From Candidatus Berkelbacteria bacterium (GTDB lineage: Bacteria; Patescibacteriota; UBA1384; XYA2-FULL-43-10; 1-14-0-10-43-13): a stretch of 64,000 nt of DNA. This document shows, piece by piece, positions 31,895 to 56,455 of the stretch. Numbering within the stretch: the stretch's first letter is position 1; each line of letters begins with the position of its first letter. Where the stretch lies: NCBI GenBank assembly GCA_037143235.1, contig JBAWZC010000003.1, positions 25,192-89,191 on the forward strand. The letters are read 5' to 3'. The notes beneath the pieces are model-generated. The model made no database searches, was not told the origin of the DNA, and was given only the letters and a program-made list of their open reading frames with translations. The translations under genes were made by a program, and so were the position numbers.

Positions 31895-31960
31895 TGGGCT
31901 ACGACAAATCATGTAGTTCAAGCTTTAGCTTGTAAAAAACCACGCTGAAGCGTGGTCTGC
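31895..31960. repeat. Intergenic repeat (module E), with a possible terminator hairpin
   Basis: 'tcatgtagttcaagctttagcttgtaaaaaaccacgctgaagcgtggtctgcagag'. The hairpin cacgc-tgaa-gcgtg recurs at 42665, 49285 and 56435. Confidence 0.5.
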
Positions 31961-32043
31961 AGAGAGCATGCGCAAGGTAAATATTCGGTCTATTATCCAA
32001 CTAACCGTTTAACTGTCAACTGTCTCGCCGTATAACTTACTAG

Positions 32044-32661
32044 CTATCTCCCCTTGTTCTTCAGATGTCTCCAAACATATAGTGCAACCAAGATGACAAC
32101 GCCAGCGGCGATTGTCATATCAAAATTGTGCAAAGTTTTGCGGACCAACTCCCAATTCTCCCCCATCTTAATACCCAGCCAAGCGAAAAGAGCGGTCCAA
32201 GGCAGTGCGCCCAGGAAAGTATAAAAAGCGAACTTTTTGATATCCATTTTGGCGATACCAGCAGGAAAAGAGATATATGTTCTCACGACTGGAAGCAAGC
32301 GACCAAAAAAGACCGTTGCGCTGCCGTATTTTGCAAACCACTTGTCAGCAAGATCGAGGTCATGTTTCGAAATCAGGATATATTTGCCCCATTTTTCGAT
32401 CAGTGGGCGTCCGCCCTTCCAAGCGATCCAATAAGCCAAAAGAGAGCCAGTCAGATTGCCAAAAGTGCCGACGGCCACAACAACCCAGAAATTCAGACGG
32501 CCAAGTGCGACCCAATAGCCAGCAAACGGCATGATAACTTCTGAGGGCATCGGGATACCACACGACTCGAGGGCCATCAACAGAAATACACCAAAGTTGC
32601 CTGAAACTTCGATCGTTTTGATGACGATATTGGCCAGAAAGTCGATGATAGTTGTGATCAT
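32044..32661 (-). CDS. DedA family (VTT domain) membrane protein
   Basis: Contains 'LESCGIPMPSEVIMPFAGY' and '...GRLLPVVRTYISFPAGIAKM', canonical for DedA. Confidence 0.85.
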   Translation of the reverse strand: MITTIIDFLANIVIKTIEVSGNFGVFLLMALESCGIPMPSEVIMPFAGYWVALGRLNFWVVVAVGTFGNLTGSLLAYWIAWKGGRPLIEKWGKYILISKHDLDLADKWFAKYGSATVFFGRLLPVVRTYISFPAGIAKMDIKKFAFYTFLGALPWTALFAWLGIKMGENWELVRKTLHNFDMTIAAGVVILVALYVWRHLKNKGR

Positions 32662-32755
32662 AAAGATAGTGTTAAAGCTGGTAAGTGTTTAAGCTAATTA
32701 GCTGTGTAATTCATTAGTTGATTAGATTTTAGCAAATTATTGCCGCAGTCGAAAG

Positions 32756-32935
32756 AGTGCTTACTGTCTGTCGATCCTAAATCCGCTCCTGTCATTTCTG
32801 CCCTGAAACGAGTTCAGGATAAACTCCGGCAGGCATCTAGTGACAGCAAAAACGTCAAGATACACTCTGCTTGGCGCTTACGCTGTGACGGGATTCCGGA
32901 TCGAGTCCGGAATGACAAAAGAGATGAAGATAACA
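32756..32935. repeat. Intergenic palindromic repeat element (module A family, 'gtcattcctgc...gcaggaatgacaaa')
   Basis: About 85% identical to 36630-36765. Shares 'gcttggcgcttacgctgtgac' with 35545-35575 and 51395-51425. Confidence 0.6.
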
Positions 32936-32966: not shown

Positions 32967-33869
32967 TTGCAATCAGACAGGTTTTTCACTAAGATTATGA
33001 GGATGTATCTATCTTACCCCGTGCAACTGAAAGAATTTGGTCGAGAGTACTTCGAGGACACGGAGCATGGTTTTGCCTATCGGTATCAACAGTCGAAAAG
33101 GTTTTTTGGCTTGATGAAATCCATCTTTATCCCCTATGGTCCTGTTTGCAACGATCTCAAGAGTTTTAGCAACTTCCTTGATCAGATCGAAAAAAATAAA
33201 ATGACCAAAGTTTACATCGACTTGCCACTGATATTAGACCCAAAAATCTTAAAAGAAGTGACCAAAGAGTTGCAGCAGAGAGGTTACAAACATCATCGCT
33301 CCGAAGTTTTGGATGGCGAAACTATCCTAGTCGAAAAAGATAAATATTGCCCAAATTCGAGATCGGCCAGATACATCCGGCGAGGGATAGAAAATTTTCG
33401 CATCGAGATAAAGAGCGAGATAGCCAAAGACGAGATCAGGGTGATGCACGAGCTCTATCTGTCAAACAATACCGAGATCAGAGACTTCAATCCCAAACCT
33501 CTTGCCGCCTTCACTAAAATTGCTAGTCACGGGGTGACGGCAATCGCTTATGATAAAATCACGAACAAAATCGAAGGGTTTCTGATGGGCTATATCGATG
33601 AGATCGCTACTGATTTTAAAAACAATGTTAACAAAAAAATTCTATATCTGATGTTTACAGCAGCTACCGACATTGGCCGAGAACAAAAGATCGGTTTCGC
33701 CCTTCATGGCCGACTTTTCGACGAAGCCTTTAATAATTTAGGCGTTGACCTCGTTGATTTCCTTGGCGCTGACAGAGCGATGAATCGTAAATACACTGAG
33801 TTTAAGATGAAGTGGGGAGGTGAATTTGTCAGTTTCCCCGGTAGTTATCAGAAAACTTTTTGGCTTTGA
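32967..33869 (+). CDS. FemAB-family peptidyltransferase (peptidoglycan cross-bridge formation)
   Basis: 300 aa. 'TEFKMKWGGEF' matches the conserved FemABX C-terminal motif. Confidence 0.7.
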   Translation: MQSDRFFTKIMRMYLSYPVQLKEFGREYFEDTEHGFAYRYQQSKRFFGLMKSIFIPYGPVCNDLKSFSNFLDQIEKNKMTKVYIDLPLILDPKILKEVTKELQQRGYKHHRSEVLDGETILVEKDKYCPNSRSARYIRRGIENFRIEIKSEIAKDEIRVMHELYLSNNTEIRDFNPKPLAAFTKIASHGVTAIAYDKITNKIEGFLMGYIDEIATDFKNNVNKKILYLMFTAATDIGREQKIGFALHGRLFDEAFNNLGVDLVDFLGADRAMNRKYTEFKMKWGGEFVSFPGSYQKTFWL

Positions 33870-33879: not shown

Positions 33880-33995
33880 TCTGTCATTCCCGCGCAGGCG
33901 GGAATCCACAAAATATTTTACCAGATTCCTGCTCATCGAGTCTGAGCCTGAGGACTCTTCCCTCAGAGTCGAATGACCTTCGCAGGAATGACAAA
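33880..33995. repeat. Intergenic palindromic repeat element (module A)
   Basis: 'ctgtcattcccgcgcaggcgggaatccacaaa' is shared with 35482-35515. The element ends in 'cgcaggaatgacaaacag'. Confidence 0.55.
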
Positions 33996-34064
33996 CAGCT
34001 TGGTTATTTTGTCATTTGGACGTTGATTTAGAAATTGGAAATTGGAAATTTGGTTATTTTTTTC

Positions 34065-35432
34065 CTATTCCACCAACTCCCAGTTCGAATCAACCTTGAT
34101 CTCATCCCATTTTTTCACATCGCCACGCTTGATATGATAATACGCCGCAAGGCCGATCATTGCCGCGTTGTCGCCAGTCATTGCTCTTTCTGGAGACAGA
34201 AAAGTAATTGACGGTGAAGCACTTGTGACTGTTTCCCCCAAACGACCCCGCAAGTAGCTATTTGCGCTCACACCGCCAGCAAAAACAACTGTTTTGGGCG
34301 AATACTTAGCGATTGCTTTGGATAGTTTCGACGAAAGTACCTCAGCAACCGCATCTTCAAAAGCACAACAAATCTCCTGCTTGATCTCCGTTGATATCTC
34401 CGCCGACGACGCTAAGTCTTTCTCTAATATAATTTTTTTAACTTGATATAAAACCGCGGTTTTGAGCCCAGAAAAGGAAAAATTGAATGTATCGTCTCGG
34501 AGCAATGGCCGAGGAAAAACGATACTTAAATTATGAATAATGAATAATGAATTATGGATTTCTTTCGGATTTCTTTCGGATTTAGAATTTTGGTTTTGGG
34601 ATTTATTTCGGGTTTCGGATTTCGGATTTAGAATTTTGTTTCTGAATTCACTCGCATATTTAGAAACAATTGGTCCTCCGGGGTAGCCAAGACCAAGTAA
34701 TTTTGCCACCTTGTCGTAAGCCTCACCGACTGCATCGTCTAAAGTTTCGCCAAGAGTTTCATATACACCATGATCCTCCATCAGTGTGATTGAGGTATGA
34801 CCACCAGAAACTGTTAACGAGATCAATGGAAAGTACGAAGCACTAAGCTCTAAATCCGAAACAATATCTAAATTAGAATTTTTAATATTTAAACTATTTG
34901 AACTTGAAATTTCTTTAGTATTTGGGGTTTGGGATTTGGGATTTGCGCCAGCCAAAGCGGAGTAAATATGTCCCTCGATGTGATTCACGGGTACGATTGG
35001 CAGATTGAGCGCATAAGATATTGTTTTGGCAGCGTTGAATCCAACCAACAACGAACCGATCAAGCCAGGACCAGCTGTGACGGCAATGTGAGTAACACCA
35101 TTGAGTAAATCCGAAGCGCTAATATCTAAATCCGAAACAATGCCCAAATTCGAATTTTTAATGTTTAAACTGTTTGAGCATGAAATTTCTTTAGTATTTG
35201 GGGTTTGGGATTTCGAATTTACCAGTGATTCTGTAATCACTGGTACAATTGCTTCGACATGTGCTCGACTGGCAACTTCTGGCACTACGCCTCCAGTCAG
35301 GGCATGTAGGTCCACCTGTGAGGAAATAATATTCGACAAAACGACCGGTTTCCCATCGATTTCCTCGATCACGGCCGCCGCTGTCTCATCGCAGGACGAT
35401 TCGATTGCTAGTATTCGTATATTATTTTTCAT
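34065..35432 (-). CDS. tsaD: tRNA N6-adenosine threonylcarbamoyltransferase TsaD carrying three in-frame repeat-derived insertions
   Basis: Contains 'ILAIESSCDETAAAV...GGVVPEVASRAH', 'VTAGPGLIGSLLVG', 'NHIEGH' and 'SGGHT'. At 455 aa it is ~118 aa longer than canonical TsaD, because of three ~35-40 aa low-complexity inserts. Confidence 0.85.
   Translation of the reverse strand: MKNNIRILAIESSCDETAAAVIEEIDGKPVVLSNIISSQVDLHALTGGVVPEVASRAHVEAIVPVITESLVNSKSQTPNTKEISCSNSLNIKNSNLGIVSDLDISASDLLNGVTHIAVTAGPGLIGSLLVGFNAAKTISYALNLPIVPVNHIEGHIYSALAGANPKSQTPNTKEISSSNSLNIKNSNLDIVSDLELSASYFPLISLTVSGGHTSITLMEDHGVYETLGETLDDAVGEAYDKVAKLLGLGYPGGPIVSKYASEFRNKILNPKSETRNKSQNQNSKSERNPKEIHNSLFIIHNLSIVFPRPLLRDDTFNFSFSGLKTAVLYQVKKIILEKDLASSAEISTEIKQEICCAFEDAVAEVLSSKLSKAIAKYSPKTVVFAGGVSANSYLRGRLGETVTSASPSITFLSPERAMTGDNAAMIGLAAYYHIKRGDVKKWDEIKVDSNWELVE
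34515..34650. repeat. In-frame repeat insertion C inside tsaD (diverged copy)
   Basis: AT-rich 'ggatttctttcggattt...tttgggattt...cggatttagaatttt' shares its core with inserts A and B. Translates as NPKSETRNKSQNQNSKSERNPKEIHNSLFIIHNLS. Confidence 0.5.
34846..34950. repeat. In-frame repeat insertion B inside tsaD
   Basis: 'ctaaatccgaaacaatatctaaattagaatttttaatatttaaactatttgaacttgaaatttctttagtatttggggtttgggattt' is ~88% identical to 35128-35215. Its ends, aaatccgaaac / gtttgggattt, are imperfect inverted repeats. Confidence 0.6.
35106..35222. repeat. In-frame repeat insertion A inside tsaD
   Basis: Near-identical to insert B and includes an internal 'taaatccgaa' duplication. Encodes KSQTPNTKEISCSNSLNIKNSNLGIVSDLDISAS. 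Confidence 0.6.
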
Positions 35433-35479: not shown

Positions 35480-35605
35480 TCTTGAATGTACTGTCATTCC
35501 CGCGCAGGCGGGAATCCACAAACAGTATTAACACATGATACGGTCTTCTGGACGCTTACGCTGTGACAGGATTCCTGCCTTCGCAGGAATGACAAATTTA
35601 CAACC
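35480..35605. repeat. Intergenic palindromic repeat element (module A)
   Basis: 'gtcattcccgcgcaggcgggaatccacaaa ... cgcttacgctgtgacaggattcctgccttcgcaggaatgacaaa'. Terminal inverted repeats gtcattcc / ggaatgac. Confidence 0.6.
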
Positions 35606-35666: not shown

Positions 35667-36605
35667 ATGGCAAACATCTTCCAATCTCATGAGTGGGAAC
35701 AATTCAAACTTCAAAGTGGCTACCAGAAAAGTTATCGTGTTGATGGTGTTCTTGTCTTGCAAAAAAATCTACCGCTTGGGCGGACAATGCTATACGCGCC
35801 GATGGTCAGTCAGCCTACGGCTGACGAAATTATGAATAGTGAATCAAGAATTAAGGATTTCATGGCAGAAATTCGAAAGATAGGCAACGAACAAAACTCT
35901 ATCTTTTTTCGATTGGAGTTTGACGTCCCGGTCGACCATGATTCATACCCCATAATTCATGATTCTGCTATTGTACAAAGCTTTGAGGAGATGCAACCCG
36001 AAAATACTTGGGTTCTCGATCTCAGCCAAAGCGAAGAAGAAATTCAGAAGAATATGAAGCCACGTGCCCGCTACAATATCAGACTTGCGGAGAAAAGTGG
36101 CGTCACGGTCAAAAGTGGTTTTACGGCTGAGCATCTCGATATTTTTTACAACCTTCACAGCTCGACCGCCATACGCCACGGGATTTCCTACCGGAGCAAG
36201 GATTACTTCGCCAGATTAGTTGAGTGTTTGAGACCAGCGGGATTGGTAAAGATTTTTGTTGCTTATCTCGATGAAGAGCCGATTTCCAGTCACATCATCA
36301 TTTCCTCTGGAGATACGGCGATTAATATGTTTGGTGCTTCATCAACTGACCATCGCGAAGTGAAGGCTCCCCACTTGCTCCAATGGCGCATCATAGAGGA
36401 GTGCAAGAGCAATGGCTTTGCCAAATATGACTTTTTTGGTATCGCCCCTTCTGACGACTCTAAGCACAAATGGGCCGGTATCACCAGCTTCAAAAAAAGT
36501 TTTGGCGGGTACCAGCGAGACCTGATGGGTAGCTACGATCTAATATTTAAGCCCCTTGAATATCAGATATTCAAGTTGGCAGAGAATATTCGCCGACCGA
36601 AATAA
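35667..36605 (+). CDS. FemAB-family peptidyltransferase
   Basis: 312 aa with 'ITSFKKSFGGYQRD' (FemABX motif). Paralog of 32967-33869. Confidence 0.7.
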   Translation: MANIFQSHEWEQFKLQSGYQKSYRVDGVLVLQKNLPLGRTMLYAPMVSQPTADEIMNSESRIKDFMAEIRKIGNEQNSIFFRLEFDVPVDHDSYPIIHDSAIVQSFEEMQPENTWVLDLSQSEEEIQKNMKPRARYNIRLAEKSGVTVKSGFTAEHLDIFYNLHSSTAIRHGISYRSKDYFARLVECLRPAGLVKIFVAYLDEEPISSHIIISSGDTAINMFGASSTDHREVKAPHLLQWRIIEECKSNGFAKYDFFGIAPSDDSKHKWAGITSFKKSFGGYQRDLMGSYDLIFKPLEYQIFKLAENIRRPK

Positions 36606-36614
36606 GACTCAAAT

Positions 36615-36940
36615 TCTTGCTCCCTTTTCTGTCATTCCTGCCCTGAAACGAGTTCAGGATAAACTCCGGCAGGAATCTAGTAACAATAAAAATGCCAAGA
36701 TACACTCTGCTTGGCGCTTACGCGTCGTCAGGATTCCTGCCTGCGCAGGAATGACAAAAGGAAAGAACGGGTTGAGTTGTTATTGCGGGGAGTCTGCGAC
36801 CTACCTACCGGCAGGCAGGCGCGGCAATCAATCATGACTTCTCGACAAGCTCGAAGAATAACTAGTTATGGTTCGACCTTGTGGAGAACAGCTTGGTACT
36901 TCTCGACACGTCCAGCTCACTCGAAGAATAAAATAACCTA
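36615..36940. repeat. Composite intergenic repeat (modules A + B + C)
   Basis: 36630-36765 copies 32756-32930. 36785-36840 ('gcggggagtctgcgacctacctaccggcaggcaggcgcggcaatcaatcat') recurs inverted at 51283-51345. 36865-36900 ('gttatggttcgaccttgtggagaacagc') recurs at 38280-38320 (inverted), 49235-49290 and 51195-51225 (inverted). Confidence 0.6.
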
Positions 36941-38224: not shown

Positions 38225-38350
38225 TTATTCTTCCAGTCAATTCGACAAACCCAGGGTGAGACTGCCAGGAAGTGTTGGACTATTCTCCACAAGGTCGAAC
38301 CATAACAATTTATTCTTCGAGCTTGTCGAGAAGTTCCTAATGAATTGCCG
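38225..38350. repeat. Intergenic repeat (module C, inverted)
   Basis: 'ctattctccacaaggtcgaaccataacaatttattcttcgagcttgtcgagaag' is the reverse complement of 36850-36905. Confidence 0.55.
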
Positions 38351-38394: not shown

Positions 38395-38590
38395 TGCCAG
38401 AAGTAATACCTATCCAGAGACAATTTAATCAATTAATCATTTATTCATTTAGTCATTGATTATCTCCTCTCCTTTTCAAGGAGAGGCAGGGTGAGGTTTA
38501 ATGTTTTAAAATGAAACCTCATCTAACCCATTCGACTTCGCTCAGGGCAGGACTTTCTCCTTGAAAAGGAGAAGAACCCTTAGAGCAATT
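38395..38590. repeat. Three-hairpin cassette, inverted copy of 3190-3386
   Basis: 'ctctccttttcaaggagagg', 'gaggtttaatgttttaaaatgaaacctc' and 'tttctccttgaaaaggagaag' are the reverse complement of the 3195-3300 hairpins. AT-rich 'atttattcattt' lies at the FemA-proximal end. Confidence 0.5.
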
Positions 38591-39981: not shown

Positions 39982-40044
39982 ATAGCAAATTGTTCGATTG
40001 CTGGATTGCTAAACTGTTAATCAGCTTACTAGCTTAAACACTTA

Positions 40045-41037
40045 CTAGCTTTCTGACTTACCGGCTTGCTCACTCTCTTTCTCTTCTGCCTTTTTATCAT
40101 GAAATTTACGATGAACATCGCGCAGGTGCTGATCGGTCACATGAGTATAAACTTGGGTCGTCGTGATCGAGGAGTGACCAAGCATCGACTGAACACTCCT
40201 GATATCGGCCCCGTTTATGAGCAGATCAGTAGCAAAAGAGTGACGCAAAGTATGCGGAGTCACTTTTTTTGTAATCCCCGCTTTTTTCGCATATTTATGG
40301 ACAAGGCGCTCTACAGAGCGGACCGAGAGTCGAGAGTGTTGGCTCGAGATAAATAGTGGCACTTCAGCTAATTTGGAAAACCCCTCAGGCTCATAGCCAC
40401 GAGTGGCGAGAAAATCAGCCAGGGCTTTCTTCGCACTTTCAGAGAGAAAAACTACTCGAAATTTCTTGCCCTTGCCCAAAACAGCGATCTCGTCACGCTC
40501 AAAATTCAAATCTTCAACATTTAGTGAGACCAGCTCAGAGACTCGTAAACCAGTCGAGAAAAGGAGGTCAAGTAAGGCTTTGTCTCGCAGACCAGCCTCG
40601 TCAGCCGCTGGCATGGCTAATATCTGGTTAATCTCGTCACCTTCAAGAAAACTAATCTCACGCTCGTCAGCTTTGGCCACGGTCACCTTTTCGGGCGACA
40701 CAGTCACGATGCCTCGGTAGGCAAGGTAACGAAGATAAGCCCTTACAGCCAGCATGTGGTAATTCTGGGTTGATTTCTTTAGCATCTCCCCCTTTTGATC
40801 CTTGAGCCTGTTTACATGCAACCGATATTCTCTAATGACTTCCTGTGTCAGGTCGCTCGGCATGATGACTGCATGTTTTTGCGCCGCTTTATCCTCTGCC
40901 TTGTGCTTCTTCTCGTCAACAAAAATGAAAAAACGATCGATATAGCGATTGTATGCCTCGATAGTCAAGTTCGATTGATTTTTCTCGAGTTCACAGTGCT
41001 CGAGAAATTGACGCTTGAGCGTGTAGAGATCTTCCAT
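40045..41037 (-). CDS. xerD: Site-specific tyrosine recombinase (XerC/XerD family)
   Basis: Contains 'HTLRHSFATDLLINGADIRSVQSMLGHSSITTTQVYTHV' (R-H-R-Y catalytic region) and an N-terminal SAM-like core-binding domain. Confidence 0.85.
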   Translation of the reverse strand: MEDLYTLKRQFLEHCELEKNQSNLTIEAYNRYIDRFFIFVDEKKHKAEDKAAQKHAVIMPSDLTQEVIREYRLHVNRLKDQKGEMLKKSTQNYHMLAVRAYLRYLAYRGIVTVSPEKVTVAKADEREISFLEGDEINQILAMPAADEAGLRDKALLDLLFSTGLRVSELVSLNVEDLNFERDEIAVLGKGKKFRVVFLSESAKKALADFLATRGYEPEGFSKLAEVPLFISSQHSRLSVRSVERLVHKYAKKAGITKKVTPHTLRHSFATDLLINGADIRSVQSMLGHSSITTTQVYTHVTDQHLRDVHRKFHDKKAEEKESEQAGKSES

Positions 41038-41619: not shown

Positions 41620-41780
41620 GCTAAACAGCTGGTAAGTGTTTAAGTCTGTAAGCTGGTAAGTGTTTAATCTAGCAAGCTTTCTCGTTGTCATTGCGAGGAG
41701 TCTGCGACGCGGCAATCTATCATTTGAAATGCATGATGGATTGCCGCACTTTGGAAAACCCAATAGCTCGCAATGACAAA
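41620..41780. repeat. MITE-like intergenic element with terminal inverted repeats (module D + B)
   Basis: Two tandem 'agctggtaagtgtttaa' copies. Then 'ttgtcattgcgagg...ctcgcaatgacaaa' has 12-bp perfect TIRs (gtcattgcgag / ctcgcaatgac) flanking ~65 bp. Confidence 0.6.
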
Positions 41781-41843: not shown

Positions 41844-42524
41844 CTAAATCTTAACTTTCTCTGCCTCTCCTTGGTAATCTTTGATCGGTTGATAGACTGG
41901 GTCGAGTAATGCTGCTCGATCAAACGCTTTTTTAGCTTCGGCGAGATAGTTTTTCAAAACGTTTTTGTCCGTCTTCAAGTTAGTTGCCGCTCGCAAATTC
42001 GCAATTCCGAGATACAGCCAGCCGTCACGATAAGTATCATTTAGCGCAACAGAACGCTCAGCGGGAATAATCGCGTATTGATACTGCCCTCTTCCGATCA
42101 ACGACTGCGACAATATGGTCAGATCATAATATTTTTTATCTGTAACAGTCGATTCTGAATACAGTTGCAACGAAGCTGTTGCCTTCTCTCTTTTGAAAAA
42201 GTCTAACAACTTCGAAATGTCGCCGCTACCCTCCACGGCCAACTTTTTCTGACTTTTCGCTACTTTGTTGCTCGGCTCGAGCAACGAAGCCTTGGCATAC
42301 GACAGCTCGGCCCAATTGTATTTTGCCTCGAGCAAATATTTATCACCAGCGCTGATATAGTTAGCGGCCCAAGCGTGACGAATGGGCTTGGTCAACAACG
42401 ATAAGAAGGAAAGTCCTATCAAAAAAATGAGCAGATAAACTGCCGTTTGGTACCAAATAGGTGCCTTTTTAATCTTGACCAAACGATCGAGATAAAGTTT
42501 TTTGATCAATACTCTAGTATTCAC
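41844..42524 (-). CDS. Membrane-anchored hypothetical protein with TPR-like helical repeats
   Basis: N-terminal TM (VYLLIFLIGLSFLSLL). The remainder is helical with 'AELSYAKASLLEP' and 'AEAKKAFDRAALLDP' TPR-like pairs. No specific family recognised. Confidence 0.35.
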   Translation of the reverse strand: MNTRVLIKKLYLDRLVKIKKAPIWYQTAVYLLIFLIGLSFLSLLTKPIRHAWAANYISAGDKYLLEAKYNWAELSYAKASLLEPSNKVAKSQKKLAVEGSGDISKLLDFFKREKATASLQLYSESTVTDKKYYDLTILSQSLIGRGQYQYAIIPAERSVALNDTYRDGWLYLGIANLRAATNLKTDKNVLKNYLAEAKKAFDRAALLDPVYQPIKDYQGEAEKVKI

Positions 42525-42559: not shown

Positions 42560-42750
42560 GTCGTAGCCGCTTTTATTTTGTCATTGCGAGGAGTCGGCGA
42601 CGCGGCAATCTATCATCTGATCTGTTTCCAACAAGTAAAGCTTGATTTACACACTGTCGTAGCCCACGCTTCAGCGTGTTTTCCCTACAAGCTAAAGATT
42701 GAGCTACGATTCGGAAGAAGAATTATCAGCTTATAAGCTTAAACACTTAC
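42560..42750. repeat. Composite intergenic repeat (modules B + E + D)
   Basis: 'gtcattgcgaggagtcggcgacgcggcaatctatcat' is ~92% identical to 41688-41725. 'cccacgcttcagcgtg' hairpin plus 'acaagctaaag...gagctac' are the reverse complement of 31905-31950 and 56395-56450. 'agcttaaacacttaccagct' is the reverse complement of module D. Confidence 0.6.
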
Positions 42751-42757
42751 CAGCTCC

Positions 42758-43564: not shown

Positions 43565-43763
43565 GGCATCATTTTATCAAAGTTCATTTCGAAATGCCAA
43601 AAAGATAGAAATAGCTAGCAAGCTGGTAGACTGCTCCGCAGATCGTAGCCCACGCTTTATCTTGTGAAGAAAACACGCTGATCCTGCTGGTCAATAGACT
43701 GGACTGAAATGACTGTGAAAAAATATCTACAAAATTCTTGCAATCGAAATAAAACCTCGCCCA

Positions 43764-49135: not shown

Positions 49136-49139
49136 TCAA

Positions 49140-49320
49140 GCAAGCTGGTAAGCTATTAAATATTTAAGCCGGTAAACAAAAACTTCTCGACTCGTCAGAC
49201 TCGCCCCAAAGGGGACATTTCAAGTCTCGAAGAATAAATTGTTATGGTTCGAGCCCTGCGTGTCAGTAGACAGGTTGTCGAGAACAGCACGTTGAAGCGT
49301 GGCTACAAGAATGACAAACA
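49140..49320. repeat. Composite intergenic repeat (modules D + C + E)
   Basis: 'agctggtaagctattaaatatttaagcc', then 'gttatggttcgagccctg...gtcgagaacagcacgttgaagcgtggctacaagaatgacaaaca'. Confidence 0.55.
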
Positions 49321-51149: not shown

Positions 51150-51470
51150 AGTTTTTAAGTGTTTAAGCCAGACAGTGAAAACAGGTCACTTTGCTAAGGC
51201 TGTTCTCCACGAGGTCGAACCATAACTAGTACCACGGCATTCTTATTGTTATTCTTCGAGCGAGCCTTGCGAGTCGAGAAGTAATGATAGATTGCCGCGC
51301 CTGCCTGCCGGTAGGTAGGTCGAAGACTTCTCGCAATGACAAACAGTTCTGTCCTTCCTGCGCAGGCAGGAATCTAGATATAATAGCAACTTCAGAATAT
51401 GCTCTCCTAGGCGCTCACGCGACGACGGGATTCCTGCCTACGCAGGAATGACACAGGGATAGGTGGAAAA
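51150..51470. repeat. Composite intergenic repeat cluster (modules D, C inverted, B inverted, A)
   Basis: 51195-51260 is the reverse complement of module C. 51283-51345 is the reverse complement of 36785-36840. 51350-51460 holds 'cctgcgcaggcaggaatc ... gggattcctgcctacgcaggaatgaca' inverted repeats. Confidence 0.6.
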
Positions 51471-51689
51471 GTATAACAATGTTTAAGTGTTTAAGCCGAA
51501 TAATTTACTAGTTGATAGTTTTATAATTTTTGCTGTTGCAATTAAAATTGTGTTACAATAACAGGTAGTTAATGTGCACAGTTTTATAGTATAGAATGCG
51601 CCAAAAAGTTTCGTCCCACTTCGCCTAGAAGCTTCGCGGGACCAAAACAATTACTTTAGATTTCGTTAGTGTAGTTTTGGGAGGGGTTC

Positions 51690-53162: not shown

Positions 53163-55022
53163 ATGGCAGACACAAATAACAACCAAAATCAGCCAGTTCC
53201 AACTCCAGCACCAGTCCCATCACCACGAGAGATGGCACAGGCAAATATTGCCCAGCGTGAAGCTGGTCGACCAGTGGTTGCAATTCCGACTGCACAAACA
53301 GACCAGTACAAAAAAGGTGTGACATCAGTCCCTGACATTATCGCCCCCGCCTCTTTTGTAGTCGAACAAAACTATATTCAGCTTGGCAATAAATTTGTCA
53401 AAACACTTTTTGTTTTCACTTATCCGCGATATTTGGAAACGAACTGGCTCTCCCCGATCATCAACTATGATCTTTCGATGGACATCGGGATGTATATTCA
53501 TCCGCTGGAGACCAAAGATGTCATGACCGACCTGAAAAACCAGCTCGGCAAGCTCGAGTCTACTTCGAGGATTGAACAGGAAAAAGGCACGCCGAGAGAT
53601 CCTGAGATTGAGACTGCTTTGGGTGATATTGAAGCGCTCCGAGATGTCTTGCAGCGCGGCGAGGTTCGCCTATTTCAATTTGGTCTGTACTTTACCATCT
53701 ACGCCAACTCGATCGAGGAATTGAAAACGATTACTGATCAGCTAGAGTCTACTCTCGGGGGCATCCTTGTTTACACCAAAGAAGCACTTTTCCAGATGGA
53801 ACAGGGTTTTACCGCGACTTTACCTCTCTTTTCAGACAAACTTGGCATCTTGCGCAACCTTGATACTGGTTCACTCTCTTCGACATTCCCCTTCGTCTCC
53901 TCTGATCTGACGCAGGAAGATGGCGTGCTGTACGGTATCAACAAGCACAACAATTCGTTGATCATTTTCGACCGCTTTAGCCTAGAAAATGCGAACTCTA
54001 TCGTCTTTGCAAAGTCTGGCTCGGGTAAAAGTTATTTTGTGAAACTTGAGGCTCTGCGCTACCTGATGATGGGTATCGATGTCATTGTGATCGACCCAGA
54101 AAATGAGTACAAACCGCTCTGTGAAGCTTTCAACGGCAGCTATCTCGAGATTTCGCTCAACTCTGACAAACGAATTAACCCTTTTGACCTGCCGATCAAT
54201 ACGGACGAGTCTGGTGAAGATGTCTTGCGTTCAAATATTGCCTCACTTCACGGCCTGATCAATGTGATGGCTGGCGGGTTGACTCCAGAGGAAGATGCTT
54301 TGGTCGACAAGGCTCTTTACGAGACCTACGCACTCAAGGATATTACGACAGACCCAGAAAGTCAGCGAAACGAAGTGCCACTGATGCAAGATTTTTACAA
54401 TATATTATCTGGTATGCAAGGTTCAGATTCACTTCGCGCTAGACTATCAAAATTTGTCGAGGGAACTTTTGCCAATCTGTACAATCAACGCACCAATTTT
54501 GATCTCAAGCCTGGTTTTGTTGTCTTTTCGGTTCGTGATCTCGATGAACAACTAAGGCCAATCGCCATCTATACTATTCTCGACTACATCTGGACCAAGA
54601 TCAGGATGAATCTCCGCAAAAGACTGATGATTGTTGATGAGGCTTGGTGGATGATGCAATACGATGACTCAGCGAAGTTTTTGCAGGGTTTGGCCAAAAG
54701 AGCACGAAAATATTATCTTGGTCTCACAATCATCTCACAGGATATTGAGGACTTTCTGTCGAGTCGTTACGGCAAGGCCGTGGTAGCCAACTCGTCGATG
54801 CAAATATTGATGAAACAGTCGACCGCTTCGATCAAGGCCGTGACTGATGTTTTTAATCTAACCGAAGGCGAACAATACATCCTACTCGAGTCAGAAGTTG
54901 GCGAAGGACTCTTTTTTGCTGGGCAAAACCATGTCGCCTTCAAGGCGATCGCCTCCTTTGTCGAAGACCAAATCATTAACACTGATCCGCGTCGTCTAAG
55001 CCAAAACAATGATGAACTTTAA
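53163..55022 (+). CDS. VirB4/TrbE/ConE-family T4SS ATPase
   Basis: The N-terminal region '...QLGNKFVKTLFVFTYPRYLETNWLSPIINYDLSMDIGMYIHP' is a VirB4 signature. Walker A is 'FAKSGSGKS'. Walker B is 'RLMIVDEAWWMM'. Confidence 0.8.
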   Translation: MADTNNNQNQPVPTPAPVPSPREMAQANIAQREAGRPVVAIPTAQTDQYKKGVTSVPDIIAPASFVVEQNYIQLGNKFVKTLFVFTYPRYLETNWLSPIINYDLSMDIGMYIHPLETKDVMTDLKNQLGKLESTSRIEQEKGTPRDPEIETALGDIEALRDVLQRGEVRLFQFGLYFTIYANSIEELKTITDQLESTLGGILVYTKEALFQMEQGFTATLPLFSDKLGILRNLDTGSLSSTFPFVSSDLTQEDGVLYGINKHNNSLIIFDRFSLENANSIVFAKSGSGKSYFVKLEALRYLMMGIDVIVIDPENEYKPLCEAFNGSYLEISLNSDKRINPFDLPINTDESGEDVLRSNIASLHGLINVMAGGLTPEEDALVDKALYETYALKDITTDPESQRNEVPLMQDFYNILSGMQGSDSLRARLSKFVEGTFANLYNQRTNFDLKPGFVVFSVRDLDEQLRPIAIYTILDYIWTKIRMNLRKRLMIVDEAWWMMQYDDSAKFLQGLAKRARKYYLGLTIISQDIEDFLSSRYGKAVVANSSMQILMKQSTASIKAVTDVFNLTEGEQYILLESEVGEGLFFAGQNHVAFKAIASFVEDQIINTDPRRLSQNNDEL

Positions 55023-56289
55023 GAGGAAATTAAAGGGAAATATTGCTTGGACTCTCGCTGCTGCTGTCGGACTGCTGATGATCTCAACCTTCGCTCTGGC
55101 GATTTCTTTTTCACCACTCGCCCTCTTTAAGGGTGGAGATCCAGTGAAAGGAACAAGTGGTTACGCTGGCGGCGTTGGAGGAGGATGCTCTGTGCCTGAC
55201 AAAATACTTTCGGACACCATTACTTACAATACGGCTGATAAAATAATCGCAAGCGTCGGCGGAAAATACACGGATATTCTAAGTGCCCCAGACAGAAAAG
55301 AAAAACTTAATATTGTAGTCACTGAAGCGCTAAATCATAATGTTAATCCAGCAATTCTAACTGCAATGTGGGTTGCTGAGGCTAGTGCGGCAGCCGAACA
55401 CGACGACGCAGCCTTTGGTTATGGGGTATACGGCGGAGTAAACCGATATCCAGGATTCAACAAACAAACGGCAGGTGGGGCCTCACTGATCAGAAAAGCT
55501 GTAGATAATGTGGCACCATATAATGAACCGTCTGGAGAAAATGCTTGGACCAGACTGTTCTACAACTATGTCGCTGCTGCAATGAAGGATTCTTATGATG
55601 AAAAAGGATATGTCTCAGATGCAGACGAAGCAAGATATGTGATTATAAAAAGATTTTACCCATCAGAAGCAACTTGTACAAAATCACCAATAATGATGCC
55701 GGGAAGCGTTGACGGCACAAAAGCAGAGGTTATCAAGAGAATCAATGCGACCGCTGGAGGGTCAGGAACTTGCAGTAGCGTAAACCTTGAGGCGAGAGCT
55801 GGTAGCTACAGCAGTGATCTAGATGAAATTACTGTCAGGATATGGAAGTACAATGGAGGGAGTGCTCCAATTGATAGTTCTATGGTGTTAACTGTCAATC
55901 CAAACTGTACCGAGGTTATCAAAGCGATTTTTACTGACATTTACAACGACCCAAGCCACCCTCAGATTGACCCTAGTCAGACAACCTGTGCCGCCAGCAG
56001 AGACAGACGCTCAAATCACGTTATCGGCGCTGCTTGCGATGTCAATGCTGACCAAAACTGGTGCGCGCCAAATTGCTACAACAAGACCAATAACAAAATT
56101 GGAGATTATTGGAAGCCAGGCGACGAAAGTCCCAATAAAGAATTTAAAGCTTGGAGCGAGGGATATGATCCTAGATCCATCGGCATAAACAGCCCTATCG
56201 CCAATGCTTTTAGAAAACATAACTGGGGCAGAGGTCTTTACAGGGACAACTTTGACGACATGATGCATTTTAGTTTTGATGGGCACTAA
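55009..56289 (+). CDS. Membrane-anchored cell-wall hydrolase (M15/LAS-type peptidase motif at the C-terminus; N-terminal domain possibly lysozyme-like)
   Basis: N-terminal TM/signal anchor. 'SNHVIGAACDV' fits the S-x-H-x-x-G-x-A-x-D zinc site of VanY/M15 peptidases. Its position next to VirB4 parallels CwlT, TcpG and PrgK. Confidence 0.45.
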   Translation: MMNFKRKLKGNIAWTLAAAVGLLMISTFALAISFSPLALFKGGDPVKGTSGYAGGVGGGCSVPDKILSDTITYNTADKIIASVGGKYTDILSAPDRKEKLNIVVTEALNHNVNPAILTAMWVAEASAAAEHDDAAFGYGVYGGVNRYPGFNKQTAGGASLIRKAVDNVAPYNEPSGENAWTRLFYNYVAAAMKDSYDEKGYVSDADEARYVIIKRFYPSEATCTKSPIMMPGSVDGTKAEVIKRINATAGGSGTCSSVNLEARAGSYSSDLDEITVRIWKYNGGSAPIDSSMVLTVNPNCTEVIKAIFTDIYNDPSHPQIDPSQTTCAASRDRRSNHVIGAACDVNADQNWCAPNCYNKTNNKIGDYWKPGDESPNKEFKAWSEGYDPRSIGINSPIANAFRKHNWGRGLYRDNFDDMMHFSFDGH

Positions 56290-56344
56290 ACTCAGACAAT
56301 ATCCTCTGGGCAGTTGCCTACTAATTGAAGTATAATGAAGACAA

Positions 56345-56455
56345 GGGCAACAAATAAGCTGGTGAGCGTTTAAGCTAGTAACTCTCCATTTAAACCGTAG
56401 CTCAAGCTTTAGCTTGTGAAATACAACACGCTGAAGCGTGGTCTACAGGTGGGTG
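56345..56455. repeat. Intergenic repeat (modules D + E)
   Basis: 'agctggtgagcgtttaagc ... gtagctcaagctttagcttgtgaaatacaacacgctgaagcgtggtctacag' is ~90% identical to 31905-31950. Confidence 0.55.

What the first reader, a model, noticed from the sequence alone, without database searches (positions are those of the whole stretch)
31895..56455. Modular family of palindromic intergenic repeats (REP/MITE-like) concentrated in the 32-57 kb half of the window
At least five recombining sequence modules recur in both orientations at 12 or more intergenic sites. Module A is 'gtcattcc(t/c)gcgcagg(c)gggaatc ... cgcaggaatgacaaa'. Module B is 'gtcattgcgaggagtc(t/g)gcgacgcggcaatctatcat ... ctcgcaatgacaaa', with perfect 12-bp terminal inverted repeats at 41688/41766. 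Module C is 'gttatggttcgacc.tgtggagaacagc'. Module D is 'agctggtaagtgtttaagc'. Module E is 'gtagctcaagctttagcttgt..cacgctgaagcgtgg'. Sites include 32756, 33880, 35480, 36615-36940, 38225, 41620, 42560, 49140, 51150-51470, 56345 and 6397. They sit at gene ends and between divergent or convergent genes, and they generate spurious ORFs (for example 36556-36837). The left-hand glycan locus is nearly free of them. The three FemAB paralogs are each flanked by these elements, suggesting the repeats mediate local duplication or rearrangement.
Basis: seen in the sequence. Interest (0 to 1): 0.6.

Follow-up and report, generated by a model that had tools for sequence, protein, structure and literature searches.

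The report
Ssn-type hairpin repeat mosaics in Berkelbacteria
The spaces between genes in this small candidate-phyla-radiation (CPR) bacterial genome hold mosaics of hairpin repeats, the commonest nearly identical to the Neisseria sequence cut by the single-strand DNA nuclease SsnA, so this is a known kind of repeat in a new host.

Summary
Modules A to E recur at the stated sites far above chance, and the same modules occur on at least five other contigs of the same metagenome sample.

The window comes from a Candidatus Berkelbacteria MAG. Module A is an inverted pair of 'GTC-ATTCC(N)GC-loop-GC(N)GGAAT-C' hairpins around a variable core. Its best copies match the Neisseria NTS/dRS3 consensus at 26 of 28 positions. 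That exact 28-mer occurs in genomes of more than 12 phyla.

Module B (GTCATTGCGAG…GCAATC) has the same logic. In a syntenic relative it flanks a 97-aa GIY-YIG nuclease on both sides, the published SRM-ssn-SRM layout. Module E is a GTAG-plus-hairpin REP-like doublet. Module D is not palindromic and remains unexplained.

The best reading is a NIME/BIME-like mosaic of Ssn-related motifs and REP-like units. It has inflated intergenic spacers about 6-fold relative to the relative.

A GIY-YIG nuclease is encoded in the same assembly, but its own flanking hairpin is of another type. The cognate enzyme and the spreading mechanism are therefore inferred, not shown.

The idea that the repeats duplicated the FemAB genes is not supported, because the paralogs are ancient. 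This is a new member of a known kind, of moderate interest.

The parts
32790..32917 (.). Composite A element 1: two inverted GTCATT hairpin units around a core of about 60 nt. The left unit is degenerate with a 25-nt loop insert. The right unit has the stem ATTCCGGA/TCCGGAAT.
   Evidence: (D1, D5)
33882..33993 (.). Composite A element 2. The left unit is TGTCATTCCCGCGCAGGCGGGAATCCAC, which matches the NTS consensus at 26 of 28 positions and fits the published SRM regex. The right unit carries a nested 44-nt 'GGTCATTCGACTC…' hairpin in its loop.
   Evidence: (z = -4.1). The same nested variant recurs at L125:12279-12356 (95% identity).
35492..35594 (.). Composite A element 3, with an exact NTS-like left unit and a CCTGC/GCAGG right unit.
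   Evidence: (z = -5.0)
36630..36756 (.). Composite A element 4. The left unit has a 25-nt loop insert. The whole element folds as one long hairpin.
   Evidence: z = -6.0
51350..51453 (.). Composite A element 5. The left unit is mutated to GTCCTT.
   Evidence: (D1, I24)
41686..41778 (.). B doublet: two inverted 'TGTCATTGCGAG…GCGGCAATC(T/C)ATCAT' units forming a 93-nt palindrome with 13-bp perfect ends.
   Evidence: D15; z = -7.4
42579..42616 (+). Solo B unit.
   Evidence: (D15)
36778..36835 (+). Solo B unit (GTTATT variant) with the 20-nt mini-palindrome CTACCTACCGGCAGGCAGGC inserted.
   Evidence: (I2)
51284..51341 (-). Solo B unit with the same 20-nt insert. It is an inverted copy of 36778-36835.
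   Evidence: (I2: 91% over 70 nt)
6429..6452 (+). B-like variant: TGTCGTT followed by the GCGGAC/GTCCGC hairpin. With the adjoining D copy it is one of only two repeat sites in the left 30 kb.
   Evidence: (D8)
31882..31959 (.). Three E units (GTAG + hairpin; the third is a GCAG variant) between convergent genes.
42659..42707 (.). E doublet, tail-to-tail, REPIN-like.
   Evidence: z = -3.5
43645..43665 (+). Solo E unit.
56397..56446 (.). E doublet, tail-to-tail.
49286..49316 (-). E-like unit GTAGCCACGCTTCAACGTGCT directly preceded by TTGTCATTCTT.
6395..6422 (+). D module, 9 nt after the stop codon of gene 5127-6386.
   Evidence: (D4, D7, D8)
32676..32703 (+). D module, 14 nt upstream of the start of gene 32044-32661 and antisense to it.
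40023..40050 (-). D module overlapping the TAG stop codon of the integrase gene 40045-41037.
   Evidence: (I9, I13)
41627..41678 (+). Two overlapping tandem D modules upstream of the PAP2 gene, directly followed by the B doublet.
   Evidence: (D7, D8)
42728..42755 (-). D module 2 nt after the stop codon of BacA.
   Evidence: (I11, I17, I20)
49144..49170 (+). Degenerate D module after the stop codon of gene 46844-49135.
   Evidence: D6
51150..51169 (+). Partial D module after the stop codon of gene 49337-51139.
   Evidence: (D6)
51478..51497 (+). Partial D module on the far side of the 51.2-51.46 kb mosaic.
   Evidence: (D6)
56356..56380 (+). Degenerate D module next to the E doublet.
   Evidence: (D4)
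36837..36937 (+). C block: C1 (CTTCTCGAC…CTCGAAGAATAA), C2 (GTTATGGTTCGACC…GGAGAACAGC), then a second C1.
   Evidence: (I3, I14, I15)
38225..38334 (-). C block. The arms at 38280-38334 and 36837-36891 are 95% complementary.
   Evidence: (I3)
49183..49285 (+). C block with longer loop inserts.
   Evidence: (I21)
51199..51283 (-). C block. Together with B (51284-51341) and A (51350-51453) it forms an inverted copy of the mosaic at 36630-36937.
   Evidence: (I2, I14, I15, I24)
3191..3300 (.). F module, a composite of three hairpins.
   Evidence: (I1, I8)
38455..38590 (.). F module, inverted relative to the copy at 3191-3300. The same module occurs at L125:10473-10634 (95% identity).
   Evidence: z = -3.5
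34008..34070 (.). H module: AT-rich (A/T)ATTGG-type repeat starting with TTTTGTCATTTGG.
   Evidence: (I4)
57728..57790 (.). H module, an inverted copy of 34008-34070.
   Evidence: I4

Best explanation
The intergenic DNA of this Candidatus Berkelbacteria genome is filled with mosaic elements built mainly from two kinds of ssDNA-hairpin repeat.

The first kind (modules A and B) is the Ssn-related motif of Chenal et al. 2025, the same kind as the Neisseria NTS/dRS3. It is an oriented unit 'GTC + ATT…AAT palindrome + C'. That unit is the binding and cleavage signal of the small single-domain GIY-YIG ssDNA nucleases of the Ssn family.

Here the units sit mostly as inverted pairs around a short variable core. 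That gives 80-135-nt elements with the anatomy of a Neisseria NIME (dRS3-RS-dRS3), or of an SRM-ssn-SRM unit that has lost its gene.

The second kind (module E) is a GTAG-plus-hairpin REP-like unit in inverted doublets. Modules C, D, F and H are further lineage-specific pieces that co-assemble with them.

Inferred mechanism: the hairpins extrude or are exposed in single-stranded DNA during replication, repair or DNA uptake, and are bound and nicked just 5' of the GTC by a cognate Ssn-type nuclease. The composite elements have multiplied by copy-and-paste into spacers and into the loops of other hairpins. They now act as recombination and deletion substrates.

Shown:
- the sequence identity to NTS;
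- the hairpin structure with covariation;
- the pairing architecture;
- dispersal across the genome;
- the SRM-GIY-YIG-SRM unit in a syntenic relative;
- a GIY-YIG gene in the same assembly;
- a population polymorphism at one element.

Inferred:
- which nuclease acts on A and B in this genome;
- that the nuclease or another enzyme spreads the elements;
- any effect on the cell.
For: 1. Identity to the known motif. Units at 33882 and 35492 read TGTCATTCCCGCGCAGGCGGGAATCCAC. This matches the published NTS consensus CGTCATTCCCGCGMAVGCGGGAATCYRG at 26 of 28 positions and fits the published SRM regex.

2. Conserved functional positions. Across 22 distinct short-loop A units from this genome, the GTC 5' of the palindrome, the ATT…AAT arms and the 3' C are invariant or nearly so. 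These are the positions that Chenal et al. found critical for cleavage and binding.

3. Covariation. The one variable stem pair covaries: UA 11, CG 8, AU 2, unpaired 1. No shuffle of 500 reached the observed score. The hairpins fold with z = -4 to -7.

4. Cross-phylum spread. The exact 28-mer occurs in at least 118 stretches of GTDB genomes from more than 12 phyla, including Saccharibacteria, Parcubacteria, Wolfebacteria and Falkowbacteria. In 47 of the 118 loci it forms convergent pairs less than 200 nt apart. The 24-mer core hits more than 120 IMG/VR stretches.

5. Link to the nuclease gene elsewhere. Where an Ssn-type GIY-YIG gene lies in such a locus, it is 4-23 nt from the hairpin. It can be flanked on both sides, as in L046.

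6. Link to the nuclease gene in this lineage. Syntenic relative L144 carries a 97-aa GIY-YIG gene (PF01541, E = 2e-16; 42% identical, E = 5e-26, to the NTS-flanked L046 protein). It is flanked on both sides by inverted B-type units TTGTCATTGCGAG…GAAGCAATC.

7. A nuclease in the source sample. The same ENA assembly and SRA run as the window hold a 103-aa GIY-YIG gene, P0121. It lies on a contig carrying the same A, B, C, D and F modules.

8. Evidence of multiplication. Composite variants that carry a particular nested insert recur at separate loci:
- window 33918-33995 and L125:12279-12356, 95% identical;
- 32789-32897 and 36629-36737, 89%;
- 36777-36846 and 51273-51342, 91%.

9. Polymorphism. 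Two assemblies of the same sample differ by a full A doublet against a collapsed single palindrome.

10. Spacer inflation. The spacers in the syntenic block sum to 3659 nt in the window against 586 nt in L144, which has none of the modules apart from the pair flanking its GIY-YIG gene.
Against: - No GIY-YIG gene lies in the window.
- P0121 is not flanked by A or B units. It follows two tRNA genes and a different hairpin, which has no copy in the window.
- No ortholog of the SRM-flanked L144 nuclease was found in the roughly 123 kb available from this genome.
- Only 2 of the 15 A and B units in the window fit the published degenerate SRM motif. The CCTGC/GCAGG stems and all B units fail it.
- Assignment of the nucleases to CDD family cd10448 could not be tested.
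- No cleavage or mobility has been observed. The polymorphism is a deletion between arms, not a new insertion.
- The A cores hold no detectable remnant of a GIY-YIG gene.
- Modules C, D, F and H are not explained by this model.
- That contig k141_775221 and the JGI contigs belong to the same genome as the window is inferred from the shared sample, the shared repeats and the NCBI organism name. It was not proven by binning.
Confidence: 0.6

Rival explanations
1. REPIN/RAYT system. The hairpin doublets are non-autonomous elements mobilised by a domesticated IS200/IS605-like HUH tyrosine transposase (RAYT). Bertels and Rainey propose this for the identical Neisseria 21-mer.
For: - Module E has the REP hallmark: a 5' GTAG plus an imperfect palindrome, in inverted doublets. 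There are 7 units against 0 expected.
- The relative L146 has BIME-like arrays of E units.
- The A hairpin core ATTCCCGCGCAGGCGGGAATC is the Neisseria REPIN seed that has been assigned to a group 2 RAYT.
Against: - No RAYT-like ORF was noticed in the window or in the other contigs of the sample. The window genes and only a subset of the ORFs on the other contigs were scanned with Pfam, and no dedicated Y1-transposase search was run.
- No such gene family clusters next to the hairpin in 238 loci from other genomes. IS110-like and GIY-YIG genes do.
- A and B units lack GTAG.
- The genome is incomplete, so absence is not established.
Confidence: 0.2
2. Classical MITEs: internally deleted copies of a DDE-type insertion sequence, moved in trans by its transposase through their terminal inverted repeats.
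For: - The elements are 80-135 nt long and have 12-13-bp terminal inverted repeats TTGTCATT…AATGACAA.
- A possible IS1-like ORF exists in the same genome at L138:3496-4404, with a weak Zn_ribbon_InsA hit.
Against: - No target-site duplications flank the five A elements or the B doublet (sequence).
- The 'TIR' is simply the outer arm of each hairpin unit, and solo units are common.
- The flanks of the IS1-like ORF show no TGTCATT ends.
- The same 28-mer is identical across more than 12 phyla. That points to recognition by a conserved protein, not to the ends of a lineage-specific IS.
Confidence: 0.07
3. Transcript-level elements: terminators, 3'-UTR stabilisers or small RNAs selected for gene regulation.
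For: - They sit at gene ends.
- Two E hairpins are followed by TTTTC and score as terminator-like (42665, 31896).
Against: - A and B occur in both orientations relative to neighbouring genes and lack T-runs.
- Terminator-like sites are not enriched (22 found against 18 +/- 4.7 in shuffles).
- There are no Rfam matches.
- Relative L144 runs the same genes with spacers of 2-76 nt and none of these modules.
Confidence: 0.07
4. Passive attachment sites. The hairpins persist as targets for IS110-family (bridge-RNA type) recombinases or integrating phages, as dRS3 does for the Neisseria filamentous-phage recombinase.
For: IS110-family transposases (PF01548 and PF02371) form the largest gene cluster next to the NTS core, in 10 of 238 IMG/VR and GTDB loci. 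Chenal et al. cite dRS3 as a phage recombinase target.
Against: - No IS110 gene was seen in the Pfam-scanned genes of the window or the other contigs of the sample.
- This explains use of the sites, not their multiplication.
- It is compatible with the main explanation and is not an alternative to it.
Confidence: 0.05

Closest known systems
NTS / Ssn-related motifs (SRM) with SsnA GIY-YIG ssDNA nucleases (Chenal et al., Nat Commun 2025, PMC11893778)
   Same: - The same oriented unit: GTC, then an ATTCC…GGAAT palindrome, then C.
- The best copies match the NTS consensus at 26 of 28 positions.
- Loop sequence is free.
- The units are dispersed, cluster around genes, and often form inverted pairs.
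- A relative has the SRM-GIY-YIG-SRM gene architecture.
- A small single-domain GIY-YIG gene is present in the same assembly.
   Different: - The host is a CPR (Patescibacteria) genome. 'Patescibacteria' does not occur in that paper's main text; its supplementary genome lists could not be checked.
- Most units (CCTGC/GCAGG stems, and the B type ATTGCGAG…GCAAT) fall outside the published degenerate SRM pattern.
- Loops carry nested inserts of 20-45 nt.
- The one nuclease found in the source sample sits after tRNA genes with a different hairpin.
- No biochemical data exist here.
Neisseria intergenic mosaic elements (NIMEs: RS units flanked by dRS3 repeats; own knowledge, with dRS3 as described in PMC11893778)
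   Same: - 20-bp ATTCCC-N8-GGGAAT-type inverted repeats bracket cores of 25-70 nt.
- The elements are strung together with other repeats into intergenic mosaics next to variable genes.
   Different: - Homology of the core sequences to the Neisseria RS units was not tested.
- The other mosaic components (B, C, D, E, F, H) are lineage-specific.
- The genome is far smaller than a Neisseria genome (own knowledge).
REP / BIME / REPIN-RAYT systems (Bertels and Rainey, bioRxiv 10.1101/2021.07.10.451892; classical E. coli and Pseudomonas REPs, own knowledge)
   Same: - Module E has a 5' GTAG plus an imperfect palindrome, in inverted doublets and arrays within spacers.
- The doublet organisation of A and B resembles a REPIN.
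- The Neisseria REPIN seed is the A hairpin core.
   Different: - No RAYT gene was found in the available DNA.
- A and B have GTC instead of GTAG.
Very small dispersed repeats (SDRs) nested in larger repeats of Nostoc (Elhai et al. 2008; own knowledge, not checked here)
   Same: Mini-modules of 20-45 nt (for example CCTGCCTGCCGGTAGGCAGG) are found inserted inside other repeat units, in hairpin loops, at several loci and in two related genomes.
   Different: - The sequences are different.
- No comparison was run.
- The mechanism is unknown in both cases.
MITEs such as Correia elements
   Same: Short, non-coding, with terminal inverted repeats, intergenic, and in many copies.
   Different: - No target-site duplication.
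- No parent IS with matching ends.
- The 'TIR' is a self-contained hairpin conserved across phyla.

Membership tests
Ssn-related motif (NTS/SRM) | Hairpin-forming palindrome of the ATTCCC…GGGAAT type | tested here: met
   DNA folds give z = -4.1 and -5.0. In 22 units, 98.9% of cells are paired and the one variable pair covaries (UA 11, CG 8, AU 2).
Ssn-related motif (NTS/SRM) | Oriented flanks: three conserved nucleotides (GTC) 5' of the palindrome and a C immediately 3' of it. These were critical for cleavage and binding in the SsnA assays. | tested here: met
   GTC and the 3' C are invariant in 22 of 22 short-loop A units. All B units also have GTC/GTT…AATC.
Ssn-related motif (NTS/SRM) | Match to the published degenerate search pattern HGTCWYN(0-2)YYVSBRHN(0-5)WNVSBRGN(0-2)RNCYNB | tested here: inconclusive
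   Only 33882 and 35492 match in the window, against 0.17 expected. The CCTGC/GCAGG A units and all B units, including those flanking the L144 GIY-YIG gene, fail the pattern.
Ssn-related motif (NTS/SRM) | The genome encodes a small single-domain GIY-YIG nuclease of the Ssn clade (CDD cd10448) | tested here: inconclusive
   P0121 is 103 aa with PF01541 at E = 2e-13. It comes from the same assembly and is 36% identical (E = 1e-10) to an NTS-flanked homolog. cd10448 assignment is not available in these tools. Its best PDB relatives are UPF0213 proteins.
Ssn-related motif (NTS/SRM) | Motifs flank the nuclease gene (SRM-ssn-SRM) | tested here: inconclusive
   Met in syntenic relative L144, where inverted B-type units lie on both sides. 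Not met for P0121 in the source sample, which is preceded by tRNA genes and another hairpin.
Ssn-related motif (NTS/SRM) | Sequence-specific cleavage of the motif as ssDNA by the cognate nuclease | not testable with these tools
   Needs purified protein and oligonucleotide assays.
NIME (dRS3-RS-dRS3) | Inverted 20-bp ATTCCC-N8-GGGAAT repeats bracketing a 50-150-bp unit, within intergenic mosaics | tested here: met
   The window has five composite A elements. Exact ATTCCCGCGCAGGCGGGAAT occurs at 33886 and 35496. The others have ATTCCTGC or ATTCCGGA stems.
NIME (dRS3-RS-dRS3) | Core (RS) homologous to the Neisseria RS families | not tested
   No Neisseria RS sequences were compared.
REP/REPIN-RAYT | 5' GTAG followed by an imperfect palindrome | tested here: met
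   This applies to module E only: 7 units against 0 expected. A and B lack GTAG.
REP/REPIN-RAYT | Inverted doublets (REPINs) or clusters (BIMEs) | tested here: met
   E doublets lie at 42659/42687 and 56397/56426, with a triple at 31882-31959. Relative L146 has arrays.
REP/REPIN-RAYT | Cognate RAYT (Y1 HUH transposase) gene in the genome, flanked by the REPs | tested here: inconclusive
   None was seen in the Pfam-scanned genes of the window or in the subset of ORFs scanned on the other contigs. No dedicated RAYT search was run, and most of the genome is unavailable.
MITE | Terminal inverted repeats plus target-site duplication, and a parent IS with the same ends | tested here: not met
   TIRs are present, but no direct repeats flank the elements. 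The IS1-like ORF has unrelated flanks.
Intrinsic terminator | GC-rich hairpin followed by a T-run, in one orientation downstream of genes | tested here: not met
   No A or B unit is called. The total is 22 sites against 18 +/- 4.7 in shuffles. Only two E hairpins qualify.

The most novel reading that the evidence does not exclude
The Ssn-type GIY-YIG nuclease together with its flanking hairpins is an autonomous mobile element of a new mechanistic class, a GIY-YIG 'ssDNA nick-and-paste' transposon. The composite A and B doublets would then be its gene-less derivatives, still multiplying in CPR genomes by inserting into spacers and into the single-stranded loops of other hairpins.

This streamlined Berkelbacteria genome would be a compact natural system for demonstrating that. 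It offers nested loop insertions, re-copied composite variants, a doublet-versus-single-hairpin polymorphism, and a relative that holds only the founder SRM-GIY-YIG-SRM unit.
Probability: 0.15. Interest if true: 0.8.

Novelty: new member of a known kind. Interest (0 to 1): 0.45.

Why it matters
CPR/Patescibacteria genomes are regarded as streamlined. Here the same gene block has spacers about 6-fold longer than in a relative, purely through hairpin repeat mosaics.

The main unit is the same 28-nt sequence found in proteobacteria, cyanobacteria, Chloroflexota, Planctomycetota, Firmicutes and several CPR classes. This extends the recently described Ssn/SRM system to episymbiotic ultra-small bacteria. 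By published accounts (own knowledge, not checked here) these bacteria depend on DNA uptake, which is the process SsnA was shown to restrict in Neisseria.

Practical consequences:
- The repeats break assemblies. The Logan contigs end inside them.
- They generate spurious ORFs, such as 36556-36837.
- They create variants that depend on the assembler.

The pair of genomes, one with only the founder SRM-GIY-YIG-SRM unit and one with an expanded family, is a useful natural contrast. It could help work out how these hairpins spread, which is still unknown for NTS, NIMEs and many REPs.

Tried and rejected
- Rfam found nothing in the window, at gathering thresholds or at E <= 0.1 over 31.8-57.9 kb.
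- No GIY-YIG ORF lies in the window, by regex and by phmmer with an E. coli YhbQ sequence recalled from memory.
- A GTDB scan for the D 18-mer gave 0 hits, so the source genome is not among the species representatives and D is not widespread.
- The exact B 31-mer gave 0 hits in IMG/VR.
- blastx of the A and B cores and the large spacers against 122 GIY-YIG proteins gave no significant remnant (best E = 0.04). An origin by internal deletion of an ssn gene is therefore not shown.
- An nhmmer profile of the hairpin next to P0121 found one more copy in the same sample (L127:4086-4177, E = 3e-17) but none in the window. P0121 therefore cannot be tied to A or B.
- The IS1-like ORF L138:3496-4404 was examined as a possible MITE parent. 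Its flanks do not resemble any module.
- The terminator hypothesis was rejected.
- The FemAB duplication idea was rejected.
- Assembly artefact was rejected. The ENA and Logan assemblies are 100% identical over the repeats they share, and the ENA and JGI assemblies are 99.8-100% identical.
- PDB and NCBIfam gave no specific family name for P0121.
- The supplements of the Ssn paper are not held in the library, so its genome lists could not be checked for CPR entries.
- Literature searches found no description of such repeats in CPR.

Full report
**Source and context**

The window is the reverse complement of part of a 99.6-kb metagenome contig, ENA ERZ27300156 k141_69081. Parts of it are also assembled from run SRR7053653. 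Its MurE protein is named in NCBI as coming from a 'MAG: Candidatus Berkelbacteria bacterium'.

Gene content between 30 and 58 kb is typical of CPR/Patescibacteria. It includes PhdYeFM, VTT, TsaD, FemAB-type genes, MurE, a Xer-like integrase, PAP2, BacA, and a TrbL/PrgI/VirB4-like cluster.

This is not an island. A relative whose MurE is 68% identical (L144) has the same gene order.

Yes. Repeat detection and a self-BLAST put nearly all repeated DNA into the spacers between 31.8 and 57.8 kb. Only two sites lie in the first 30 kb, at 3198-3358 and 6395-6450.

Each module is far above chance:
- TGTCATTSCNGM: 8 against 0.15 expected.
- D core: 9 against 1.5.
- C core: 4 against 0.35.
- E unit: 7 against 0.00.

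I answered it with a metagenome scan for the D 18-mer.
- Six loci of JGI metagenome 3300021075 (Ga0194063) were returned.
- Five of them (L125, L127, L129, L133, L138) carry A, B, C, D, E, F or H modules in various combinations at 85-100% identity. The sixth (L135) carries D only.
- None shares any other stretch of 150 nt or more with the window.
- One of these contigs is also present in ERZ27300156 and SRR7053653, the same assembly and run as the window.

They are therefore other regions of the same population genome. This is inferred from the shared sample, the shared repeats, similar G+C and the NCBI organism name.

In about 123 kb I count 26 A units, 11 B units, 9 E units and 22 D cores. 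The JGI loci were selected for containing D, so these densities are biased upward.

**Anatomy of modules A and B**

Writing every unit in one orientation shows that A and B share one grammar. It reads (T)TGTC, then a palindrome that begins ATT and ends AAT, then C.

A units are TGTCATTCC(N)GC-loop-GC(N)GGAATC.
- They come as inverted pairs around a core of 24-70 nt.
- This gives five composite elements in the window: 32790-32917, 33882-33993, 35492-35594, 36630-36756 and 51350-51453.
- More composite elements lie on the other contigs.

B units are TTGTCATTGCGAG…GCGGCAATC(T/C)ATCAT.
- One perfect doublet lies at 41686-41778.
- Solo units lie at 42579, 36778 and 51341 (minus strand).
- A GTCGTT variant lies at 6429.

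The hairpins fold strongly as DNA, with z = -4 to -5 for single units and -6 and -7.4 for the composite A and B elements.

In 22 distinct short-loop A units the only variable stem pair covaries (UA 11, CG 8, AU 2, one mismatch). No shuffle of 500 reached the observed covariation score or percentage paired, and slid controls collapse to 19-54% paired.

**Anatomy of the other modules**

E is GTAG followed by a 14-nt hairpin, mostly in tail-to-tail doublets.

D does not fold (z = -0.3).
- It has stop codons in all three frames.
- Its AGCTGG end always faces the adjacent gene.
- It lies either 0-66 nt after a stop codon in sense, or upstream of a start codon in antisense.

C, F and H are further composite pieces.

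Whole mosaics recur. The A-B-C block at 36630-36937 has an inverted counterpart at 51199-51453 (I2, I14, I15, I24).

**What modules A and B are**

A literature search for the hairpin sequence led to Chenal et al. 2025.
- The Neisseria dRS3 repeat ATTCCC-N8-GGGAAT is part of a 28-nt 'NTS', CGTCATTCCCGCGMAVGCGGGAATCYRG.
- The NTS is bound and cut as ssDNA only, a few nucleotides upstream, by SsnA. SsnA is a 94-aa single-domain GIY-YIG nuclease.
- Cleavage depends on the three nucleotides 5' of the palindrome. Binding depends on the C just 3' of it. The loop sequence is free.
- Related 'SRM' motifs flank ssn genes in many phyla.

The window units at 33882 and 35492 match the NTS consensus at 26 of 28 positions and fit the published SRM pattern. 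All other A and B units keep the GTC, the ATT…AAT arms and the 3' C.

Most units nevertheless fail the published degenerate pattern. It does not allow CCTGC stems or the ATTGCGAG arm.

- The hosts span Alpha-, Beta- and Gammaproteobacteria, Cyanobacteria, Chloroflexota, Planctomycetota, Ignavibacteriota, Bacteroidota, Firmicutes, Actinobacteriota, Myxococcota and Omnitrophica.
- Four CPR groups are also represented.
- 47 of the 118 loci hold convergent pairs less than 200 nt apart.

The 24-mer core saturates an IMG/VR scan as well.

**Link to a nuclease**

In loci from other genomes that contain an Ssn-type gene, the gene lies 4-23 nt from the hairpin. It can be bracketed by inverted copies, as in L046.

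The key local evidence comes from syntenic relative L144.
- It has a 97-aa GIY-YIG gene between MurE and the integrase.
- That protein has PF01541 at E = 2e-16 and is 42% identical (E = 5e-26) to the NTS-flanked L046 protein.
- Inverted B-type units flank it on both sides: TTGTCATTGCGAGCGCTAGCGAAGCAATC and TTGTCATTGCGAGCCTTCGAAAAGGCGAAGCAATC.
- This is the published SRM-ssn-SRM layout with a B-type hairpin.
- L144 has none of the other modules. Its spacers in the shared block sum to 586 nt, against 3659 nt in the window.

The L144-type protein family is very large and 60-72% identical across Berkelbacteria, cyanobacteria, Chloroflexota and others.

The window has only a 63-nt spacer at the corresponding position.

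The source sample does encode a 103-aa GIY-YIG protein, P0121. It has PF01541 at E = 2e-13 and is 36-38% identical to the two proteins above.

P0121 is not flanked by A or B units.
- It follows two tRNA genes and a different conserved hairpin, CCATTCGACTCGCTTC…GAGTCGAATGT…GAGTCGAAGGA.
- That arrangement is shared by its homologs in three other CPR lineages.
- The hairpin has one more copy in the sample but none in the window.

The cognate nuclease for A and B in this genome is therefore not identified.

**Signs of multiplication and turnover**

Copies differ by insertions of 20-45 nt placed in hairpin loops or right after the 3' C.
- A nested GGTCATTCGACTC… hairpin sits in the loop of the unit at 33924-33993.
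- A 25-nt insert sits in the loops at 32791 and 36631.
- The mini-palindrome CTACCTACCGGCAGGCAGGC sits in the B units at 36778 and 51341. It also sits in an E unit of relative L146.
- A 24-nt CTTCGGCAGGCTCAGGACAAGTTC insert sits in both B doublets of L138.

Variants that carry a given insert recur at separate loci at 89-95% identity. The composites were therefore copied after the insertion.

Two assemblies of the same sample, otherwise 99.8-100% identical, differ at one site. One has a full A doublet and the other a single perfect palindrome, TGTCATTCCCGCGAAGGCGGGAATGACA. They also differ in the copy number of a 122-nt tandem array next to P0121.

This shows population-level instability. It is a deletion between arms, not a transposition.

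**Rivals**

REPIN/RAYT. This reading is serious for module E, which has the GTAG hallmark. It has also been proposed for the identical Neisseria hairpin. However, I saw no RAYT among the Pfam-scanned genes of the window or the subset of ORFs scanned on the other contigs. No dedicated RAYT search was run. None clusters next to the hairpin elsewhere; the commonest neighbours there are IS110-family transposases (10 loci). That fits the known use of dRS3 as a recombinase target.

Classical MITEs. This reading fails because there are no target-site duplications and no parent IS with matching ends.

Terminator or sRNA. This reading fails on four counts:
- the elements lie in both orientations;
- A and B have no T-runs;
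- terminator-like sites are not enriched and there are no Rfam hits;
- the syntenic relative lacks the repeats altogether.

**The FemAB idea**

The three FemAB-type proteins share at most 32% identity over short stretches. Two of them already sit in the same arrangement in L146. The repeats did not duplicate them recently.

What remains is weaker.
- The 300-aa gene at 32967-33869, bracketed by two A elements, is an insertion relative to L144.
- The BacA/226-aa block is inverted relative to L144, with repeat mosaics at and inside its borders.

**Verdict**

The finding is confirmed as an observation. Its general interpretation, a dispersed modular family of the REP/MITE kind, is right.

The specific identity is an Ssn-related (NTS/dRS3-type) hairpin family plus GTAG REP-like units. 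They are assembled into NIME/BIME-like mosaics in a CPR genome.

That is a new member of a known kind, with variant hairpins outside the published motif. The searchable literature holds no report of it for CPR. Other public CPR genomes carry the same hairpin pairs.

Module D, the mini-inserts, the cognate nuclease and the spreading mechanism remain open.

Noticed in passing
window 43761-43816 and 44511-44566, flanking gene 43908-44432 (-): A PaaX_M-domain gene is bracketed by two copies of a near-perfect palindrome of about 56 nt (AAATCTGTGTCAAATATGAAACGG|CCGTTTCATATTTGACACAGATTT). The gene is absent from the syntenic relative L144, so it looks like an inserted cassette or a repressor with its operators.
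   Followed up: partly
window 34528-35220, inside TsaD 34065-35432 (-): TsaD carries two in-frame copies of a 114-nt repeat (34831-34944 and 35107-35220, 87% identical) and AT-rich heptamer-like repeats (34528-34644). Together they encode low-complexity insertions. Relatives have different insertions at the same loop positions.
   Followed up: partly
L141:9710-10312; also L147, L149 and L150: P0121-type GIY-YIG genes in four CPR lineages all lie directly after a tRNA gene plus a conserved hairpin (CCATTCGACTC…GAGTCGAATGT…GAGTCGAAGGA). In the JGI assembly the hairpin region forms a 122-nt tandem array of about 3.6 copies. In the ENA assembly there is one copy.
   Followed up: partly
window D modules, for example 6395-6422, 40023-50, 42728-55: Module D has stop codons in all three frames and always points from the neighbouring gene into the mosaic. 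It starts 0-10 nt after the stop codon in five cases and overlaps the integrase TAG stop. There was no hit in GTDB species genomes. Its function is unknown.
   Followed up: partly
window 41844-43564 compared with L144:13709-15190: The BacA plus 226-aa gene block is inverted relative to the syntenic relative. Repeat mosaics lie at both borders and at the internal junction.
   Followed up: no
L141:9455-9587: An A element gives sub-threshold Rfam matches to Wolbachia WsnRNA46 (E = 0.045) and Francisella FtrB (E = 0.11). Those 'sRNA' families may be built on SRM-type repeats.
   Followed up: no
IMG/VR and GTDB loci L003-L268, for example L004:1198-2178: IS110-family transposases (PF01548 and PF02371) are the commonest gene family within 400 nt of the NTS core, in 10 loci. 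This is consistent with these hairpins serving as insertion targets.
   Followed up: partly
L138:3496-4404: A 303-aa ORF with a weak InsA zinc-ribbon hit is a possible IS1-like transposase in the same genome. Its flanks do not match any repeat module.
   Followed up: partly
window 59122-64000: A single reading frame stays open from 59122 to the end of the window (at least 1626 aa). This is a giant protein gene running off the window.
   Followed up: no
window 31512-31600 and 31692-31780: An 89-nt direct repeat (84% identical) lies inside the long C-terminal part of the PhdYeFM-domain ORF 30974-31861.
   Followed up: no
window 3306-3382, 30906-30950, 38423-38455: AT-rich arrays with an 8-nt period (AATAAATG-like) lie upstream of several genes. 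They are shared between distant spacers in both orientations.
   Followed up: no
L146:4456-4750 and 6418-6516: The closer relative (MurE 73% identical) has BIME-like arrays of E-type doublets in which the left unit starts GGAG instead of GTAG. One unit is interrupted by the same CCTGCCTGCCGGTAGGCAGG mini-palindrome seen in the window's B units.
   Followed up: partly
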